Source of the DNA: Escherichia coli
GTDB taxonomy: Bacteria; Pseudomonadota; Gammaproteobacteria; Enterobacterales; Enterobacteriaceae
DNA length: 64,000 bases
Assembly (NCBI RefSeq): GCF_003790525.1
Contig: NZ_CP033635.1
Strand: one strand, 5' to 3'
Of this stretch, positions 15,001-21,000 are shown piece after piece. The first letter of the stretch is position 1. Every line of letters starts with the position of its first letter. Position numbers: made by a program.

Positions 15001-18000
15001 GAGCCTGACGGGTGCAGCCGTTCAGCGGATGCGTGGCGCAGACACGGGACTGAAAAATGGCATTGCACAGGCTGCTTTTTCCGGCACCGGATTTACCCAT
15101 AATGCCAATAACGGGTTCGTACTGAATGACGCTGCGAAGATGTTCAAGGATTTTCTGGCGAATTTCTTCAGGAAGAAAGGTCAGATGTGACTTTACGTGT
15201 GCGGAGAGGGAAGAATGGCTGAATGACATACCGTTATCCTGTTGATTTCACTGAACCGGATCACATTAATCCGGCCTCTCAGTCAGGTAATATGGACGTG
15301 AAAATTTTTCCATTGACGGGAAGAAGAGTATGGCTAAAAACAAAGGTATCTGTCGGAATAAAAAATGCAGCAATCCTGTTTCAGAATTTGATGAGGCAAA
15401 TGCCCTGAGGTTATGTGATGATCATTATCAGTTATGGAAACGAAATAAAGAGAACCGTCGGGTCAGGAATATTTGTCGTATAATCAGTAAATATGACAAA
15501 AGTCTGGACCGGGAGATATTTGACAGAGTAATAGATGCTGCAAGAAATCAAACGGGAAAGAGAATTGTTGAGGACGCAAAAATATTACATCAATTGCGCA
15601 ATTCAAAGCAAGTAAGAAAAAGTCTTCATAATGGAGTACTCCGGTCACGGGAATGGCTCAATACACAGGAGTTACTGAGAAGAAAAAATATATCTGTTAC
15701 AGGTGACTCATTTAAATCTTACATAAAGGATATTGTCAGATTATATTGCTATAAGTTTCTCTACAGCAGAGAATATCTTAATGAAAACGCATACAAAAAA
15801 CAATATCAGAGAGTTATTAACCCCAGAGAATTTAATGTTCCGATACTTCAACTTGAAGTTGCATGGATCAATAATAATTGCCGTTCAAGTGATTCAAGCT
15901 CTGATATTATCATCCTTCCCAGGATGATAAGAAGAATGGTTGTATTTAATGATACGAAGATAAATAAACAATTAGAGGAAATGTTGGGGGGGATAGCACG
16001 AAAAAAAGTCGCAGTAAGGAATAAAGGCGGTCTCTATACCAGAATAAAAAAAGAAAATGATTTTCGTTCTATGGATAGATTTATGGTGGAAATCGAAAAT
16101 ATCATAAGGCCTGAAATATTTCCGACATCAATTTACCCGCCTTTTTCACTTTCATTTATCGAGAGAGAATTGCCACTACTGAATCTGGCGCACTCACAGT
16201 ACAAAAGAGCAATAAGTAAAAAAGTGGCGAATTCAATTTTTTATACTTTGCGAAAAACTCACGTGGCATTATGGCTGCATCTTGAAATGTTTGCTCTTGT
16301 GGCATTCATCAAACTGTATACAGGAAAAGGGTTTGAATTCATGAAAAACATGTGTGTATTTATAGATTATGATAAAGGGATAATAAAATCCACGCATGAA
16401 GAACTGCTGAGTGAAATTAAGTGTAACATTCAGTTGAATTTAAAGGTGAATCCTGATAATTTTCCTGAATTAATAGAAGTATACAATTCATGCTTTAGTA
16501 AAAATATATTGTTGTATGATGTTCAGGATGATGGTTTTAAATGGTGTTTATGATGTGAAAATATTAAATTTATATTACATTTTAATTATCGACAAAAAAC
16601 ACATAAAGAAATCTAAAGGGAATGAGCGTCAAATGAGCTGATATAGCGCCAGTTTGGTATGGTCATGTGATTTGATGATTAAAGCTTACGAATAATAACA
16701 CTCCTCTGTGAGCCATATAAATGAGCATGCCATAATCGTCAGTTCAGAGATAAAACTGACTGAATGATCTTATGTTATAGTAAGCAGTGTTTACCGGATA
16801 CGATGACTTATCTCTCTCACATCATATGGATTCACTTTCATGGGGTAAAGCGATGGGACTACAGACGCTGATTATGATGGTTTGCTGTAAAGTTAGCACA
16901 AGTTTTTGCTGTACAGAATACGGAGTAAGAAAAATAATTCCAGAGTAAATCTGCTCTGCTTTTGAACAGAAAAGATTCATGCTTACCGTGAAAAACTGAA
17001 ACCAACATTCAGTCTGCATGGATGTCTTAAGATGTTGAGAATGTCGGATATGGTATTATATACACCTTTTCCATTAGGTCCTTTTATGTTTTCATTAAGT
17101 CGTTTTGTATGTATTCCTCCAGTGATTCATTAGTGCCTGTTTACGCATTTACACACTTTCCCATTAATCTCCTTTAAATGTGTTTCATTACGCATTGCTG
17201 TACACATTTTTGAACTGATACACATCCAAGTTAGTAAACCTGTCAGTTCTGATTTTACGTTAACTAAATCAGTTTAATGCTGCTGTAAAACAATCCTTCC
17301 TGTTTAAGCAATCAATCTGCTATTCGATTTTACTGATGTGACGTTTAACCTTTCCTGAGCTTTGGTTGTTTGTGGTTTTTGGTTTGTGTTTCGACGTTAA
17401 GCTGAGAAAAGTATCTTTACGCTAAATCAACCCGAACTTTCCTGAGGTGATCTGACGTTCTTTTCGATGTGCTTACGACGATTCTGTTAAACGACTTTCT
17501 GGATGTTTTGATAACAATCAGATTGAGGCATTAACGATTCCTGACGTTTTGCTTTTTCATGTAAGGTCATTGTTTTCGTCATGATGTGGTTTTTCTTCTT
17601 GCATTGCGAAAGTGTGATGATTGGTTTTGGTTTTTTGATTCAGATGAGATTTACGTTATCGATGGTTAATCGTTTTTATGGTGCGTAGTGAAACGTAACA
17701 TTTTCGGGATGAGAAAATCGATTCTGATGGTGATGGGGATGATCGTGTTACGGCGTTATCTGTAAACAGGTTTTAAACGTGTCATTCGCATTCGTGATTG
17801 AGTTGTGTGATTAAGCTGTAGGTTTTGGCGTTGTTGTTGATTTGCATTGCCAGGAAGCGTTCTGGTTGCGTTTCTGGTGTTTTGTTCGAATGTTCTGTGG
17901 ATCCTTTTCCCTTCAGGCTTTTCTCGTCGTCCATGTCGTTTTTAAATCCATTCATGCTGTTGTTGCGTGTTTTGCTGCTGTGTGCAGGATTATCTTTTCG

Positions 18001-21000
18001 TTCCGGGATGGTTTGTTCCGTTTCAATCACTCTTAATCAGAGAGTTGTAGCATTGCTTAATGGCATGATGCCGTAAAGTTTTACCGCGGTGATTAATGAT
18101 GTGAAGTCAATCCAAATCAACGGAGATCTCTCATCATGAATCAACCAATACACAATGCTTACTGGTTATCCCGTTTTGACAGCCTTCTCGACAGTGCCCT
18201 GTCGCAGCACCGTGCCGTCTCGTTAATCCGGGTGGATTTACGTTTCCCTGAGTATATGCCTGTCACCATCATGGATCCCGATCCGGATTCAGCGGTGATT
18301 TCTCGTTTTTTCGAATCCCTGAAAGCCAAAATCCAGGCTTACCAGCGGAAAAAACGACGTGCCAACAAGCGTGTGCGTGCAACCACTCTGCGTTATTTCT
18401 GGTGTCGGGAGTTTGGCAAGGAAAAAGGCAGGAAACATTATCACGTGATATTGCTGCTCAACAAAGATACCTGGTGCTCGCCAGGGGATTTCAGCGAACC
18501 ATCTTCGCTGGCGACGATGATCCTGGAGGCATGGTGCAGCGCCCTGCATCTTGAGGCCTGGCAAGGCGATGGCCTGGTCCATTTTTCCAGGTGGACGCCT
18601 TCCCGTAAACCAGCATCGTCTGATGCTCGCCCTTCTTCCGATGACACGCCTTTGTCGGGTGGATGTTCTGATACCAGGAAGGCTTCAGAAAAAAAGCCGG
18701 GTGAAGCCGCTGTTCTCTGGATCAAGCGTGGTGATGTGGAAGCGCTGCAGAAAGCCCGGAACAGAGCCAGTTATCTCGTGAAATATGAGACGAAGCAGCA
18801 TGACGGTTCCGGGCAACGTAATTATGGTTGCAGTCGTGGGCCGGGGCGTCTGCTGGATGGCAGGTGAGCCCTGTAAAACGACATCCGGTGCCTGAGCTTA
18901 TGCTACAGGACGTTGGCTGACGCCCTTAGCTCGTTTTCTGAAAAAGTCGTCCTGAAGTCATGCAACGGTATTTTTCTCTGCTTTCGCTCCTGGAAACACT
19001 CCGTCGGTAAAACCTTACTGTCCTGCTTAATGATGTGAACCGAAGTCAACGGAGATCATTCATTCTGAACCTGCATCCGGTGTTCTTTCCCTTATCTTCC
19101 CGTTCTGCTTCGGTTCTTCACTTATTCCATCAATCTCATTCGTAAACCATAACACGTCAGCTCATTCACGGGCAGGACGCGTTGTGGGCTGCGCATAACG
19201 GAGCATATCTTATGAATGCTATCCCTTATTTCGACTATAGCCTGGCCCCCTTCTGGCCATCTTATCAGAGCAAAGTTATCGGTGTCCTTGAGCGTGCGCT
19301 GCGTGAGCAGTCCGGCTCCAGGATACGGCGGATCCTGCTTCGTCTGCCGTGTGAATATGACAGTACCTTCAGCAGCAGAAAGACCTGGTTTGGTATGGAT
19401 TTTATCGAAACCGTCAGTGCGCTGATGAATGCAACCCCCGGACGCGACCTCTGCTGGCTCCTGACACGTCATCCTGAAAAACCGGAATACCACGTGGTGC
19501 TGTGCGTCAGACAGGAATATTTCGACGGCCCTGAGCTGGACCGGTTGATTCTGGATGCCTGGAGCAACGTACTGGGCTTCGCGGCACCGGGTGAAGCAGC
19601 ACCGTACCAGAAACAGATAACCCGGGATGTGGTGCTGGACAGTTGTTCACCGGACTGCGAAGAGAGACTCAAAGAGCTGATCTGGGCGTTCAGTGATTTC
19701 GCCCGCGATCGTCGTGGTGTGCGCGATCCGGAAGCCCGTTACCTCGCCGGTAATCCCTGGTATCCCGTAGCAGGCCAGCTCTGAAAGCTCAGCTCAGCAG
19801 ATTCTCCCGCATTTGCCCAACATTCATAAATCTCACAGAGGACATTCTGACCATGTTGACCTCAATGACAGGTCACGACAGCGTATTGCTGCGTGCCGAC
19901 GATCCCCTGATCGACATGAACTACATCACCAGCTTCACTGGTATGACCGACAAATGGTTTTACAAGCTGATCAGTGAAGGCCATTTCCCTAAACCCATCA
20001 AACTGGGGCGCAGCAGCCGCTGGTACAAAAGTGAAGTGGAGCAGTGGATGCAGCAACGAATCGAGGCATCACGAGGGGCAGCAGCATGAAACGTGTTGTA
20101 ATGCCGGTACGCTGGCAATGTGCAAAATACCAGCGTTGGTATTGTGGAAATCAGCCCTGTCCCTGGTGCTGGCGACCTGCTGCCCCCGTCTGTCATTCCT
20201 CGTTCTTCGCTGTAACAGGCATCGTACCGGTCTCGGCGTGCTTTCCTGCGTACCGACACCGGTTCAGCAACATTCAAGGGGATCAAATCGTGCAAATAAC
20301 CGAAACCGTACTTTCAGAGCCGGTGGAAATCCGGCGTTTTATTCAGCAGGCGGTGGATCACTGGCCGCGTCTGCTGGCCGTCCACTTCACACTCCATTCG
20401 GCAGAAGGAAACATCAACGGACAACAGATTCATGCATTCTGTACTTCCTTTTACCGACAGGTGCACGAGCGTATTACTGAACGTAATCACACGGCCAGTC
20501 CAGCACCACCGGTGGTATTACGCTGGTTGCGGGAACAACATGGAGGAGCAACAATGCGATGCCTGTTGCTGCTCAGCCAGACGAGCATTTGCCATCCACG
20601 GGTCAGTGCCACGGTTGATGAAGAATGTTCGCAACGGGTGGATTTATTGCAACAGACATGGCGGGTGATAAGTGCTGACGGACAATGCCGGGTGGAAAGG
20701 TGTTTTCAGGCTGCCCGGGGTGATACATCCGGCCAGTATATTGCGTTAAAAACAGTTGCATTGTCTCTGGGGTTACCGGTTGTGACCGGTATTACCCATC
20801 GCCCGGTACAGCGCTGTACATTGATTACAGCTCAGTGAACAGCGCTGTTGTGCAGTCAACGAGGTTTTCTGTCTTTTCGTCGGTCATTCAGCATCATTAA
20901 ACGGGTCTCTGCCTCTTTCTGTTCCTGTGGTGTCACTTCCCCGCACGGCTGACCGTTCAGGTTGTAACGGGCGCCACCTGCTATTAACGCACGGTAATAG

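What the first reader, a model, noticed from the sequence alone, without database searches (positions are those of the whole stretch)
16554..18135. 1.6-kb ORF-free region with strong strand skew and recurring ACGTT-containing motifs upstream of the YagK-like genes
No ORF above about 80 codons occurs. The right half (about 17300-18100) is G+T-rich and C-poor on the plus strand and carries (T)GACGTT / AACGT cores at roughly 40-60 bp intervals (near 17337, 17391, 17451, 17541, 17651, 17691, 17749, 17776). Because it sits immediately upstream of genes with an inovirus Gp2-like replication-initiator domain, it could be a replication origin, an iteron-like array or a long structured RNA.
Basis: inference. 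Interest (0 to 1): 0.45.

Follow-up and report, generated by a model that had tools for sequence, protein, structure and literature searches.

The report
Non-coding control spacer before island rep gene
This 1.6-kb gene-free stretch is a real non-coding module that always sits directly in front of a rolling-circle-type nuclease gene in a common family of E. coli genomic islands; it is most likely that gene's long regulatory leader, not an origin with regular repeats or a folded RNA, and only its last ~190 bases are strongly conserved.

Summary
The region has no ORF above 83 codons. Its right half is the most G+T-rich 800 nt of the window (G+T 0.652, C 0.155). GACGTT occurs four times against 0.5 expected.

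The window is an E. coli genomic island. Bases 16916-18135 recur directly upstream of the same 243-aa YagK/YfjJ-family gene (HUH motif plus conserved Tyr) in 1877 of 5426 complete E. coli genomes. Length (1080-1205 nt) and strand skew are kept across lineages.

- The segment is non-coding: no conserved ORF, no 3-base periodicity, no Pfam hit in any of six frames.
- It is not a structured RNA: no Rfam hit, folding z-scores near zero, no useful covariation.
- The ACGTT cores are irregularly spaced and only about half are conserved, so they are not iterons.
- The distal part diverges faster than the gene's third codon positions. It is replaced or missing in about a quarter of sampled genomes, at a recurrent breakpoint near 17945.
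- Only the last ~60-190 nt are near-invariant. They can fold into a hairpin burying the ribosome-binding site and start codon.

Best reading (confidence 0.4): a composite control region and long untranslated leader. A replication or transfer origin is not excluded. Interest is modest.

The parts
16554..16915 (.). Lineage-specific tail behind the variable cargo gene (407-aa ORF 15330-16553). It is not part of the conserved backbone.
   Evidence: Only 53 of 1878 matching records cover at least 80% of the query. Most matches start at query position 363-375, which is window 16916-16928.
16941..16970 (.). Terminator-like hairpin(s), readable on both strands, marking the left edge of the conserved backbone. 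Probable insulator between the cargo gene and the backbone.
   Evidence: Minus-strand terminator-like sites at 16970-16950 and 16958-16941. Plus-strand hairpin 16941-16958 followed by a second small hairpin, -10 kcal/mol, z = -1.9. In other lineages the stem is followed by TTTTTTGA.
17027..17065 (.). Conserved promoter-like cluster. Plus strand: TTAAGA-16-TATGGT and TGgTATTAT. Minus strand: TATAAT at 17060-17055. The T>A skew begins here.
   Evidence: Own PWM scan on the alignment: plus-strand scores 6.4-7.4 in the window and 2.9-9.9 at the same columns in the homologues that cover this stretch. Skew profile. The tool's stricter scan did not list it.
17065..17215 (+). Degenerate direct-repeat array (consensus TTTTACTAAGT / TTTYCATTAAGT, period about 12 and 24-25 nt). 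It is decayed in this window, with copies at 17068, 17089 and 17182.
   Evidence: TRF period 12/25 in L006. Repeat families. Autocorrelation peak at 24-25 nt, z up to 5.1. 6-10 plus-strand matches in the homologues against 2.1-2.9 expected, and 0-2 on the minus strand. Copy number varies through 30-50-nt indels.
17254..17785 (.). Eight ACGT-core sites: six in direct orientation (ACGTT at 17257, 17341, 17394, 17455, 17544, 17653) and two inverted (AACGT at 17692, 17776).
   Evidence: Positions and enrichment. Partial conservation: 17653 invariant; 17341, 17394 and 17692 mostly kept; 17455 and 17544 confined to the window's own lineage.
17300..18100 (+). G+T-rich, C-poor spacer. Proposed untranslated leader, sense with the downstream gene.
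   Evidence: Composition. The skew is kept in homologues 75-95% identical (G+T 0.61-0.645). No conserved ORF, no 3-periodicity, no Pfam hit in six frames.
17782..18030 (-). 82-aa ORF that RefSeq annotates as a hypothetical protein (WP_000573215.1). Probably spurious.
   Evidence: Annotated in LH50-c. Broken or frame-shifted by indels that are not multiples of three in L004, L006, L007, L008 and L009. No Pfam family.
17849..17890 (+). Terminator-like hairpin followed by GUGUUUUGUU. Possible attenuator within the leader.
   Evidence: Listed by the scan. -12.7 kcal/mol, z = -1.7. One G-C to A-U compensatory pair, 5 versus 4 sequences. The 5' arm is deleted in L018.
17940..17949 (.). Recurrent recombination breakpoint between the distal and proximal modules.
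   Evidence: Homology to L010 starts near 17940. Homology to EAEC 042 resumes at 17949 after a 1.15-kb insertion. 14 of 60 evenly spaced matches cover only query 1396-1582, which is window 17949-18135.
17949..18135 (+). Proximal module: the gene's own promoter and 5' UTR. Promoter-like TTGCTT-15-TAAAGT with the -10 at 18074. The last 60 nt are 95-100% identical in all homologues.
   Evidence: Conservation. Promoter-like site.
18090..18143 (+). Imperfect 19-nt inverted repeat. As RNA it forms a hairpin that buries the Shine-Dalgarno sequence (GGAG, 18122-18125) and the AUG (18136).
   Evidence: -16.5 kcal/mol, z = -2.24, 5 of 200 shuffles fold as well. All pairs are essentially invariant in 10 homologues, so there is no covariation test.
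18136..18867 (+). 243-aa YagK/YfjJ-family ('inovirus Gp2 family') HUH protein gene.
   Evidence: Pfam PF11726 E = 3.6e-37 and PF23343 E = 1.9e-10. HYHVILLL and YLVKYETK motifs. H101, H103, Y213, K216 and K220 invariant.

Best explanation
The segment is the composite, non-coding control region of the 'replication/regulation' module (YagK/YfjJ-family HUH gene, 200-aa ORF, AlpA-family gene, ProQ/FinO-family gene) of a widespread family of E. coli genomic islands.

Proposed layout, left to right:
1. The 3' tail of a variable cargo gene.
2. A terminator-like hairpin that insulates the backbone.
3. A promoter-like cluster with a short array of direct repeats. These may be boxes for a small DNA-binding regulator such as the module's own AlpA-type protein.
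4. About 0.9 kb of T/G-rich, C-poor DNA that is transcribed towards the HUH gene as an untranslated leader.
5. A ~190-nt proximal module that carries the gene's own promoter and a hairpin occluding its ribosome-binding site and start codon.

Proposed working: expression of the nuclease gene is kept low by AT-rich (H-NS-type) silencing, by a terminator-like attenuator in the leader, and by the start-site hairpin. The strand skew makes sense-strand RNA a poor Rho substrate (C 15%, G 24%). Antisense RNA would be C-rich, G-poor and almost unstructured, which makes it a good Rho substrate.

Shown here: the non-coding nature, the linkage to the gene, the conservation pattern, the skew, the repeats and the predicted hairpins.

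Inferred only: the direction of transcription, the roles of H-NS and Rho, and the identity of any protein that binds the repeats.
For: - Linkage: always contiguous with the gene's start in all 85 listed matches, and present in 1877 of 5426 E. coli genomes.
- Length: the distance from the left anchor to the ATG stays at 1080-1205 nt across lineages that are only 75-78% identical.
- Non-coding: no conserved ORF, no 3-periodicity, no Pfam hit.
- Conservation rises towards the gene: 69-76% identity in 16920-17635, 84-99% in 17636-17935, 95-100% in the last 60 nt.
- The start-site hairpin is invariant, -16.5 kcal/mol, z = -2.2.
- A terminator-like hairpin with U-run has one compensatory pair.
- A conserved promoter-like cluster sits where the T>A skew begins.
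- Polarised substitutions lean the way expected for a sense (non-template) strand: C>T 0.258 per C against G>A 0.198 per G, and T>C 0.113 against A>G 0.148.
- Minus-strand RNA is nearly unfolded, -4 to -11 kcal/mol per 120 nt over roughly 17500-17980.
- The module encodes an AlpA-family protein and a ProQ/FinO-family RNA-binding protein.
- A paralogous 188-aa Gp2-type module has its own unrelated ~1-kb ORF-free, T-rich upstream region (T 0.39, A 0.27), again most conserved in its last 100 nt.
- In EAEC 042 a DUF3296 (YagK/YfjJ-family) gene, orf3192, responds to Aar and H-NS-family proteins (PMC5570504). Strain 042 carries both paralogues, and I could not establish which of the two is orf3192.
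Against: - No transcript data were available.
- The consensus scan finds no more sigma-70-like sites than shuffles do (4 against 6.6) and none next to the gene.
- The distal kilobase diverges faster than the gene's third codon positions (69-76% against 85-93% identity). It is missing or replaced in about a quarter of sampled genomes with the gene intact. Most of it is therefore dispensable or under weak constraint.
- The recalled H-NS high-affinity motif is not enriched.
- The substitution asymmetry rests on small counts and is not significant on its own.
- More distant relatives (Brenneria, unnamed contigs) have 0.5-0.75-kb A-rich gaps without this skew.
Confidence: 0.4

Rival explanations
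1. The region, or part of it, is the cis-acting site for the HUH nuclease: a rolling-circle double-strand origin of the excised island, or an oriT-like nick site for mobilisation. The direct-repeat array or the ACGT-core sites would be the binding locus, and the conserved inverted repeat at the gene start would be the nick hairpin. The T-rich, C-poor strand would be the displaced single strand.
For: - The gene encodes a protein with intact HUH and Tyr motifs and a REP_ORF2-G2P match.
- The region is always adjacent to it.
- A directional repeat array is present.
- There is an invariant 19-nt imperfect inverted repeat at 18090-18143.
- From my own knowledge: T-rich viral strands are typical of ssDNA replicons, and in Ff phages the intergenic origin lies directly upstream of gene II.
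Against: - The skew is confined to about 1 kb and stops at the gene, which has no skew.
- There are no hairpins beyond chance on either strand.
- No DnaA box, IHF site or recalled nick consensus was found.
- The repeats and ACGT cores differ between islands whose proteins are 91-95% identical at the nucleotide level.
- The distal part is absent in about a quarter of sampled genomes.
- No motif is shared with the upstream regions of yfjJ, yagK or the 188-aa paralogue.
Confidence: 0.17
2. Most of the segment (about 16916-17948) is functionless spacer: old, decayed DNA that hitch-hikes with the conserved proximal promoter and the gene. The ACGTT excess would be a lineage-specific accident.
For: - It diverges faster than synonymous positions of the neighbouring gene.
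- It has many indels and variable repeat copy number.
- It tolerates a 1.15-kb insertion in EAEC 042, and replacement or truncation in about a quarter of sampled genomes.
- Two GACGTT sites exist only in the window's own lineage.
- No structure or coding signal is present.
Against: - Length is held within about 5% (1080-1205 nt) across lineages about 25% diverged, despite bacterial deletion bias.
- The strong strand skew is maintained and appears near equilibrium (C>T 49, T>C 51).
- The central block 17636-17935 is better conserved than its flanks.
- An unrelated paralogous module keeps a similar ~1-kb T-rich ORF-free region.
Confidence: 0.2
3. The region encodes an independent non-coding RNA. 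One option is a plus-strand RNA of about 200-800 nt ending at the 17849-17890 hairpin. The other is an A/C-rich, unstructured minus-strand RNA. Either might work with the module's ProQ/FinO-family protein in antisense control, in the manner of FinP/traJ or the phage P4 CI RNA.
For: - Terminator-like hairpin with one compensatory pair.
- Better-conserved block 17636-17935 just upstream of it.
- ProQ/FinO-family ORF in the module.
- ACGTTTAA (17341-17348) and TTAAACGT (17773-17780) are complementary. In L002 both sides change (GCGTTTAA and TTAAGTGC) and pairing can be kept (read from the alignment).
Against: - No Rfam match.
- No folding signal.
- Covariation terms are about zero.
- That complementarity is broken in L003 and L006.
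- No convincing conserved promoter lies in front of the block.
- ProQ/FinO is a pseudogene in several islands.
Confidence: 0.1
4. It is the remnant of a protein-coding gene: either a hydrophilic protein on the A/C-rich minus strand, such as the annotated 82-aa ORF, or a membrane protein on the G+T-rich plus strand.
For: - RefSeq annotates 57-82-aa ORFs on the minus strand in several genomes.
- G+T-rich composition is typical of membrane-protein genes. The next most skewed stretch of the window (24451-25250) lies within the stretch LH50-c annotates as a PTS IIC transporter gene.
Against: - No ORF is conserved on either strand, and indels are not multiples of three.
- 3-periodicity is absent: power at or below 1.3, against 7-8 in the flanking genes.
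- No Pfam family at E <= 1 in any of six frames.
Confidence: 0.04

Closest known systems
Intergenic region of Ff filamentous phages (M13/f1/fd), directly upstream of gene II
   Same: Both are non-coding DNA placed immediately upstream of the gene for an HUH-type initiator. In both, the strand in the sense of the genes is T-rich.
   Different: From my own knowledge, the Ff region is about 0.5 kb and is packed with strong hairpins (packaging signal, minus and plus origins). Here neither strand folds better than shuffles, there is no sequence similarity, and the skew is local rather than genome-wide.
Leader-based control of rep genes in rolling-circle plasmids (pT181 repC attenuation; pMV158 repB with CopG and RNA II)
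   Same: Both have a hairpin that sequesters the rep gene's ribosome-binding site and start codon, plus a terminator-like hairpin upstream.
   Different: Those leaders are 100-200 nt long and depend on defined countertranscripts. Here the candidate leader is about 1.1 kb and no countertranscript promoter is evident.
Immunity leader of satellite phage P4 (PLE leader with seqA / cI / seqC upstream of the replication operon)
   Same: Both are long untranslated regions ahead of the replication genes of an element with a P4-type integrase and AlpA context. The same idea of control by premature termination applies.
   Different: No consistent triad of complementary sequences is present. The one candidate pairing (17341-17348 with 17773-17780) is broken in two lineages. 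There is no homology, and P4 uses a primase-helicase rather than an HUH protein.
AT-rich, H-NS-silenced regulatory regions of horizontally acquired islands
   Same: GC is 0.375 here against about 0.47 for the window. The island setting matches. A family member in EAEC 042 responds to H-NS-family proteins and Aar (PMC5570504). H-NS-family genes lie next to the paralogous module.
   Different: No binding data exist for this region. The recalled high-affinity H-NS motif is not enriched. H-NS binding would not by itself explain a strand-specific skew.
Arrays of direct-repeat boxes bound by excisionase-type regulators (P2 Cox boxes, lambda Xis sites)
   Same: The TTTTACTAAGT-like boxes lie in one orientation at about 12-nt spacing next to a promoter-like site. 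The module encodes an AlpA-family protein.
   Different: Binding is untested. The array is degenerate in this window and varies in copy number. The comparison rests on my own knowledge of those systems.

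Membership tests
Iteron-type replication origin | Three or more direct repeats of about 17-22 bp, regularly spaced and conserved among relatives | tested here: not met
   ACGT cores are spaced 39-110 nt apart. Two of them are inverted. Only about 4-5 of 8 are conserved. No periodic signal appears in the right half.
Iteron-type replication origin | Adjacent DnaA box(es), IHF site and AT-rich unwinding element | tested here: not met
   No DnaA box within one mismatch inside the conserved part; the only such site is at 16586 in the lineage-specific tail. 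No IHF consensus.
Iteron-type replication origin | Binding of the repeats by the cognate initiator and origin activity in trans | not testable with these tools
   Needs EMSA or footprinting and a replication assay.
Rolling-circle double-strand origin / oriT of an HUH nuclease | Location next to or inside the nuclease gene | tested here: met
   The region abuts the start codon in all 85 listed matches. HUH and Tyr motifs are intact.
Rolling-circle double-strand origin / oriT of an HUH nuclease | Conserved hairpin presenting the nick site, plus nearby binding repeats | tested here: inconclusive
   One invariant imperfect inverted repeat lies at 18090-18143 and a repeat array lies 0.9 kb away. 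No match to recalled nick sequences. No motif is shared with the upstream regions of paralogues.
Rolling-circle double-strand origin / oriT of an HUH nuclease | Site-specific nicking by the protein | not testable with these tools
   Needs purified protein and oligonucleotide substrates.
Structured non-coding RNA (any Rfam family or a new one) | Match to a curated covariance model | tested here: not met
   No match at E <= 1 in 14000-21000 on either strand.
Structured non-coding RNA (any Rfam family or a new one) | Folding energy below shuffles, and compensatory changes | tested here: not met
   z-scores lie between -1.7 and +2 in 120-nt windows on both strands. Covariation terms are +0.26 and -0.05 kcal/mol. 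There are 2 and 4 pairs with double changes out of 60 and 70.
Protein-coding gene or pseudogene | Conserved reading frame, codon periodicity, or similarity to a protein family | tested here: not met
   no conserved ORF; no 3-periodicity; no Pfam hit in six frames.
Intrinsic terminator / attenuator | GC-containing stem-loop followed by a U-run, conserved | tested here: inconclusive
   17849-17878 plus GUGUUUUGUU: -12.7 kcal/mol, z = -1.7, stem rich in G-U pairs, one compensatory pair, 5' arm deleted in L018.
H-NS-silenced AT-rich regulatory region | AT content well above the genome average | tested here: met
   GC is 0.375 over the region and 0.25-0.43 in 200-nt windows, against 0.49-0.59 in the flanking core-like genes.
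H-NS-silenced AT-rich regulatory region | H-NS occupancy and derepression in an hns mutant | not testable with these tools
   The only indirect evidence is a DUF3296 gene of EAEC 042 that responds to H-NS-family proteins and Aar (PMC5570504). The recalled nucleation motif is not enriched.
Single-strand promoter / ssi element of conjugative leading regions (Frpo-type) | Long imperfect hairpin formed by one DNA strand | tested here: not met
   No close-range inverted repeats. No folding signal on either strand.

The most novel reading that the evidence does not exclude
The conserved ~1.1-kb module could be the still-unknown cis-acting site through which the HUH nuclease replicates or mobilises a very common class of E. 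coli tRNA-associated islands (pheV/pheU-type pathogenicity islands and CP4-like elements). The repeat array would be the binding locus and the start-site inverted repeat the nick hairpin. Alternatively, it could be an unusually long, C-depleted, 'Rho-proof' untranslated leader that acts as an RNA-level switch for island activation, together with the module's ProQ/FinO and AlpA proteins.
Probability: 0.15. Interest if true: 0.6.

Novelty: new member of a known kind. Interest (0 to 1): 0.3.

Why it matters
Islands with this backbone (YfjP-type GTPase, antirestriction, RadC, CbtA/CbeA on one side; YagK/YfjJ-type HUH protein, AlpA, ProQ/FinO on the other) occur in roughly a third of complete E. 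coli genomes. They carry virulence and fitness cargo such as ireA, microcins and sugar-uptake loci. How they are regulated, copied or moved is essentially unknown.

This analysis identifies the non-coding module always attached to their HUH gene. It separates a small, near-invariant proximal control element from a large, fast-evolving, strand-skewed distal spacer. That tells experimenters where to look first: the 190-nt proximal module and the start-site hairpin. It also provides natural deletion variants for comparison. If the region is only a silenced leader, the finding is ordinary.

Tried and rejected
- Rfam scan at E <= 1: nothing.
- Sliding MFE z-scores on both strands: no signal.
- RNAalifold on 17836-18160 and 17630-17900: no useful covariation.
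- Six-frame Pfam scan: nothing.
- Search for conserved small ORFs: none.
- Codon periodicity: none.
- A/T-tract phasing at 10-11 nt (intrinsic curvature): no consistent peak.
- Recalled H-NS nucleation motif: no enrichment.
- DnaA, IHF, Chi and recalled RCR nick-site patterns: nothing meaningful.
- Motifs shared with the upstream regions of yfjJ, yagK, the 188-aa paralogue and distant relatives: none.
- E. coli K-12: yagJ has the same length but is unrelated. K-12 has no copy of the region. yfjJ and yagK have short upstream gaps.
- Phage collection: no match. Plasmid collection: 4 matches, all Escherichia.
- Scan of one genome per species with the protein: only two close relatives found.
- Esr41, an island sRNA of O157, was considered and dropped. 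It lies between z1181 and z1182 and has a GC-rich terminator unlike anything here.
- PADLOC on the variable cargo proteins: no hit.
- Attempt to establish which EAEC 042 gene is orf3192, using cluster accessions: failed.

Full report
**Observation**

The region 16554-18135 has no ORF longer than 82-83 codons. Bases 17300-18100 are A 0.194, C 0.155, G 0.243, T 0.408. With G+T at 0.652, this is the most keto-skewed 800-nt stretch of the whole 64-kb window (mean 0.518, sd 0.033).

ACGTT lies at 17257, 17341, 17394, 17455, 17544 and 17653. AACGT lies at 17692 and 17776. GACGTT occurs four times against 0.48 expected from dinucleotide-preserving shuffles. The spacing is irregular, at 39-110 nt. There is only one YagK-like gene in the window.

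**Setting**

The window is an E. coli genomic island, 99.7% identical to strain LH50-c.

- To the left, on the minus strand, lies an operon typical of these islands: YfjP-type GTPase (14345-15229), DUF905, DUF932, antirestriction, JAB/RadC, DUF987 and the YeeU/CbtA toxin-antitoxin pair.
- Next, on the plus strand, comes a 407-aa AT-rich ORF with no known domain (15330-16553).
- Then comes the ORF-free stretch.
- It is followed by a 243-aa YagK/YfjJ-family gene at 18136-18867 (PF11726 E = 3.6e-37; REP_ORF2-G2P E = 1.9e-10).
- Downstream are a 200-aa ORF, an AlpA-family gene (19853-20089) and a ProQ/FinO-family ORF on the minus strand.

The protein carries HYHVILLL and YLVKYETK motifs. H101, H103, Y213, K216 and K220 are invariant across yfjJ, yagK and distant relatives. 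It looks like a functional HUH nuclease.

**Distribution**

Matches to the region occur in 1877 of 5426 complete E. coli genomes, with up to 7 copies per genome. Only 53 records cover at least 80% of the query. Most matches begin at query position 363-375, which is window 16916-16928. Every one of the 85 listed matches runs to the last base of the query, next to the start codon.

The first 360 nt therefore belong to the variable cargo gene. The conserved backbone module is 16916-18135. The cargo slot holds different genes in different islands: 407 aa, 376 aa, or 316 + 262 aa.

The module is confined to Escherichia:
- There is no phage match and only four plasmid matches, all Escherichia.
- The 243-aa subfamily does not fall below about 83% identity before jumping to about 43% in Brenneria and Providencia.

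**Conservation pattern**

Relative to the window, homologues show the following identities:

| Segment | Identity |
|---|---|
| 16920-17635 | 69-76% |
| 17636-17935 | 84-99% |
| 17936-18075 | 67-98% |
| last 60 nt | 95-100% |
| gene, third codon positions | 85-93% |

Most of the spacer therefore evolves faster than synonymous sites. The pairwise matrices for spacer and gene are incongruent, which points to mosaic recombination.

Even so, the distance from the left anchor (AAAATAATTC) to the ATG stays at 1080-1205 nt. The skew is also kept, at G+T 0.61-0.645 in all homologues.

Fourteen of 60 evenly spaced matches retain only window 17949-18135. Homology to L010 begins at about 17940. In EAEC 042 the stretch 17648-17949 is replaced by a 1.15-kb insertion carrying a 176-aa gene. 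The distal and proximal parts are thus separable modules with a recurrent junction near 17945.

**What it is not**

- *Not coding.* No ORF is conserved on either strand, and indels are not multiples of three. There is no 3-base periodicity and no Pfam family in any frame at E <= 1. The 82-aa ORF that RefSeq annotates on the minus strand is broken in several lineages.
- *Not a structured RNA.* There is no Rfam match. Folding z-scores lie between -1.7 and +2 on both strands. Covariation terms are close to zero.
- *Not a regular iteron array.* GACGTT at 17455 and 17544 reads GGTGT or GGCGTG in the other lineages. GACGTT at 17394 reads GTCGTT or ATCGTT. Only 17653 is invariant. The right half has no periodic self-similarity.
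- *No known origin signals.* No DnaA box, IHF site or recalled nick sequence is present in the conserved part. No motif is shared with the upstream regions of paralogues.

**Anatomy that did emerge**

1. A terminator-like hairpin at 16941-16970, readable on both strands, sits exactly at the left edge of the backbone.
2. A promoter-like cluster at 17027-17065 is conserved at the same alignment columns in the homologues that cover it. It lies where the T>A skew starts.
3. A degenerate array of direct repeats follows (TTTTACTAAGT-like, period 12 and 24-25 nt). Homologues have 6-10 plus-strand matches against 2.1-2.9 expected, and 0-2 on the minus strand. The array is decayed to three copies in this window (17068, 17089, 17182) and varies in copy number.
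4. The T/G-rich spacer carries the ACGT cores, six direct and two inverted.
5. A terminator-like hairpin at 17849-17878 is followed by a U-run and has one compensatory pair.
6. The proximal module has a weak promoter-like site (-10 at 18074). It also has an invariant imperfect 19-nt inverted repeat at 18090-18143. As RNA this forms a -16.5 kcal/mol hairpin (z = -2.2) that covers the Shine-Dalgarno sequence and the AUG.

**A recurring theme in a paralogous module**

A paralogous 188-aa Gp2-type gene heads the same kind of module (hypothetical ORF, AlpA, UCP030791, ProQ). In EAEC 042 and four other genomes it is preceded by 1.1-2.6 kb without genes. About 950 nt of that gap is conserved, AT-rich (GC 0.33-0.35) and T-rich (T 0.39, A 0.27). 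It is again mosaic, and again most conserved in its last 100 nt. It has no sequence similarity to the region studied here.

A Providencia relative has a 450-nt T-rich, C-poor gap (T 0.434, C 0.071). Brenneria and two unnamed contigs have A-rich gaps of 0.5-0.75 kb. A long ORF-free, sense-T-rich upstream region is therefore recurrent in the E. coli modules but not universal.

**Most likely explanation (confidence about 0.4)**

The segment is a composite control region and long untranslated leader for the HUH gene module. The gradient of conservation towards the gene, the start-site hairpin, the terminator-like hairpin and the promoter-like cluster at the onset of the skew all fit this reading.

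The strand composition fits too. Sense RNA would be C-poor (15%), whereas antisense RNA would be C-rich, G-poor and almost unfolded (-4 to -11 kcal/mol per 120 nt). From established knowledge of Rho utilisation sites, that composition favours Rho termination of antisense transcripts but not of sense transcripts.

Polarised substitutions lean in the direction expected for a non-template strand (C>T 0.258 per C against G>A 0.198 per G). The counts are small.

AT-richness and the island context suggest H-NS-type silencing. A DUF3296 gene of EAEC 042 (orf3192) responds to Aar and H-NS-family proteins (PMC5570504). I could not establish which of the two 042 paralogues that gene is.

The direct repeats next to the promoter-like site resemble arrays bound by excisionase-type regulators. 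The module's AlpA-family protein is a candidate binder, but this is inference only.

**Rivals**

- *Origin or oriT for the HUH nuclease (about 0.17).* It is favoured by adjacency to the gene, the repeat array and the invariant inverted repeat. A report of copy-number gain of an integrase and a Gp2-family gene in Nissle isolates also fits (bioRxiv 10.1101/364505). It is weakened because the distal part is dispensable, hairpins and shared motifs are lacking, and the skew is local.
- *Functionless spacer (about 0.2).* It fits the fast divergence and the tolerance of insertion. It does not fit the retained length, the retained skew or the parallel in the paralogous module.
- *Independent ncRNA (about 0.1) and decayed gene (about 0.04).* These have little support.

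**Comparison with known systems and novelty**

I found no description of this region in the searchable literature. In kind it resembles known AT-rich island control regions and rep-gene leaders. It does not pass the tests for an iteron origin, an Rfam family or a structured RNA.

I rate it a new member of a known kind, of modest interest (0.3). There is a roughly 15% chance that it hides the cis-acting replication or transfer site, or an unusual Rho-proof RNA switch, of a very common class of E. coli islands.

Noticed in passing
window 15330-16553 (+); alternatives in L003 2462-3592, L002 2427-4162: The slot between the YfjP-type GTPase and the conserved spacer is variable. It holds unrelated AT-rich genes of unknown function in different islands (407 aa here, 376 aa, or 316 + 262 aa). 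The 407-aa ORF is intact here but has an internal stop in LH50-c. It looks like a cargo or defence hotspot, but there are no Pfam or PADLOC hits.
   Followed up: partly
L022 (EAEC 042) 30289-32650; window equivalent 17648-17949: EAEC 042 carries a 1.15-kb insertion inside the spacer, with a 176-aa gene on the opposite strand (WP_000778604.1, no PADLOC hit). The junction at about 17949 coincides with the breakpoint seen in L010 and in 14 of 60 evenly spaced matches.
   Followed up: partly
L022 22834-24827; L026-L029 about 2400-3500: A paralogous 188-aa 'inovirus-type Gp2' gene is listed in 18782 blocks of the collection index. It heads the same module and has its own unrelated ~1-kb ORF-free, T-rich upstream region. 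H-NS-family genes lie next to it in two genomes.
   Followed up: partly
window 18136-18867, protein residues about 150-195: The 243-aa subfamily has a Ser/Pro-rich insertion of about 45 residues between the HUH and Tyr motifs. It is absent from yfjJ, yagK and the 188-207-aa relatives.
   Followed up: no
window 17782-18030 (-): RefSeq annotates an 82-aa hypothetical protein here (WP_000573215.1; 57-aa versions in CFT073 and another strain). The frame is not conserved between island lineages, so this is probably an annotation artefact.
   Followed up: yes
window 20856-21200 (-): A ProQ/FinO-family ORF (PF04352, E = 3e-21) belongs to the module. It is annotated as frameshifted in LH50-c and other islands. 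This hints at RNA-based control that is often lost.
   Followed up: no
window 18440 and 18586 (-): Two promoter-like sites on the minus strand inside the HUH gene are identical in all homologues examined (scores 8.4 and 9.0 in my PWM scan). They could drive antisense transcripts into the spacer, or they may simply reflect coding conservation.
   Followed up: no
L017 214-4000: In one genome (GCA_019431125.1) about 3.8 kb between the GTPase gene and the HUH gene carries no called gene except a 58-aa ORF. The HUH gene there appears to have a displaced start.
   Followed up: no
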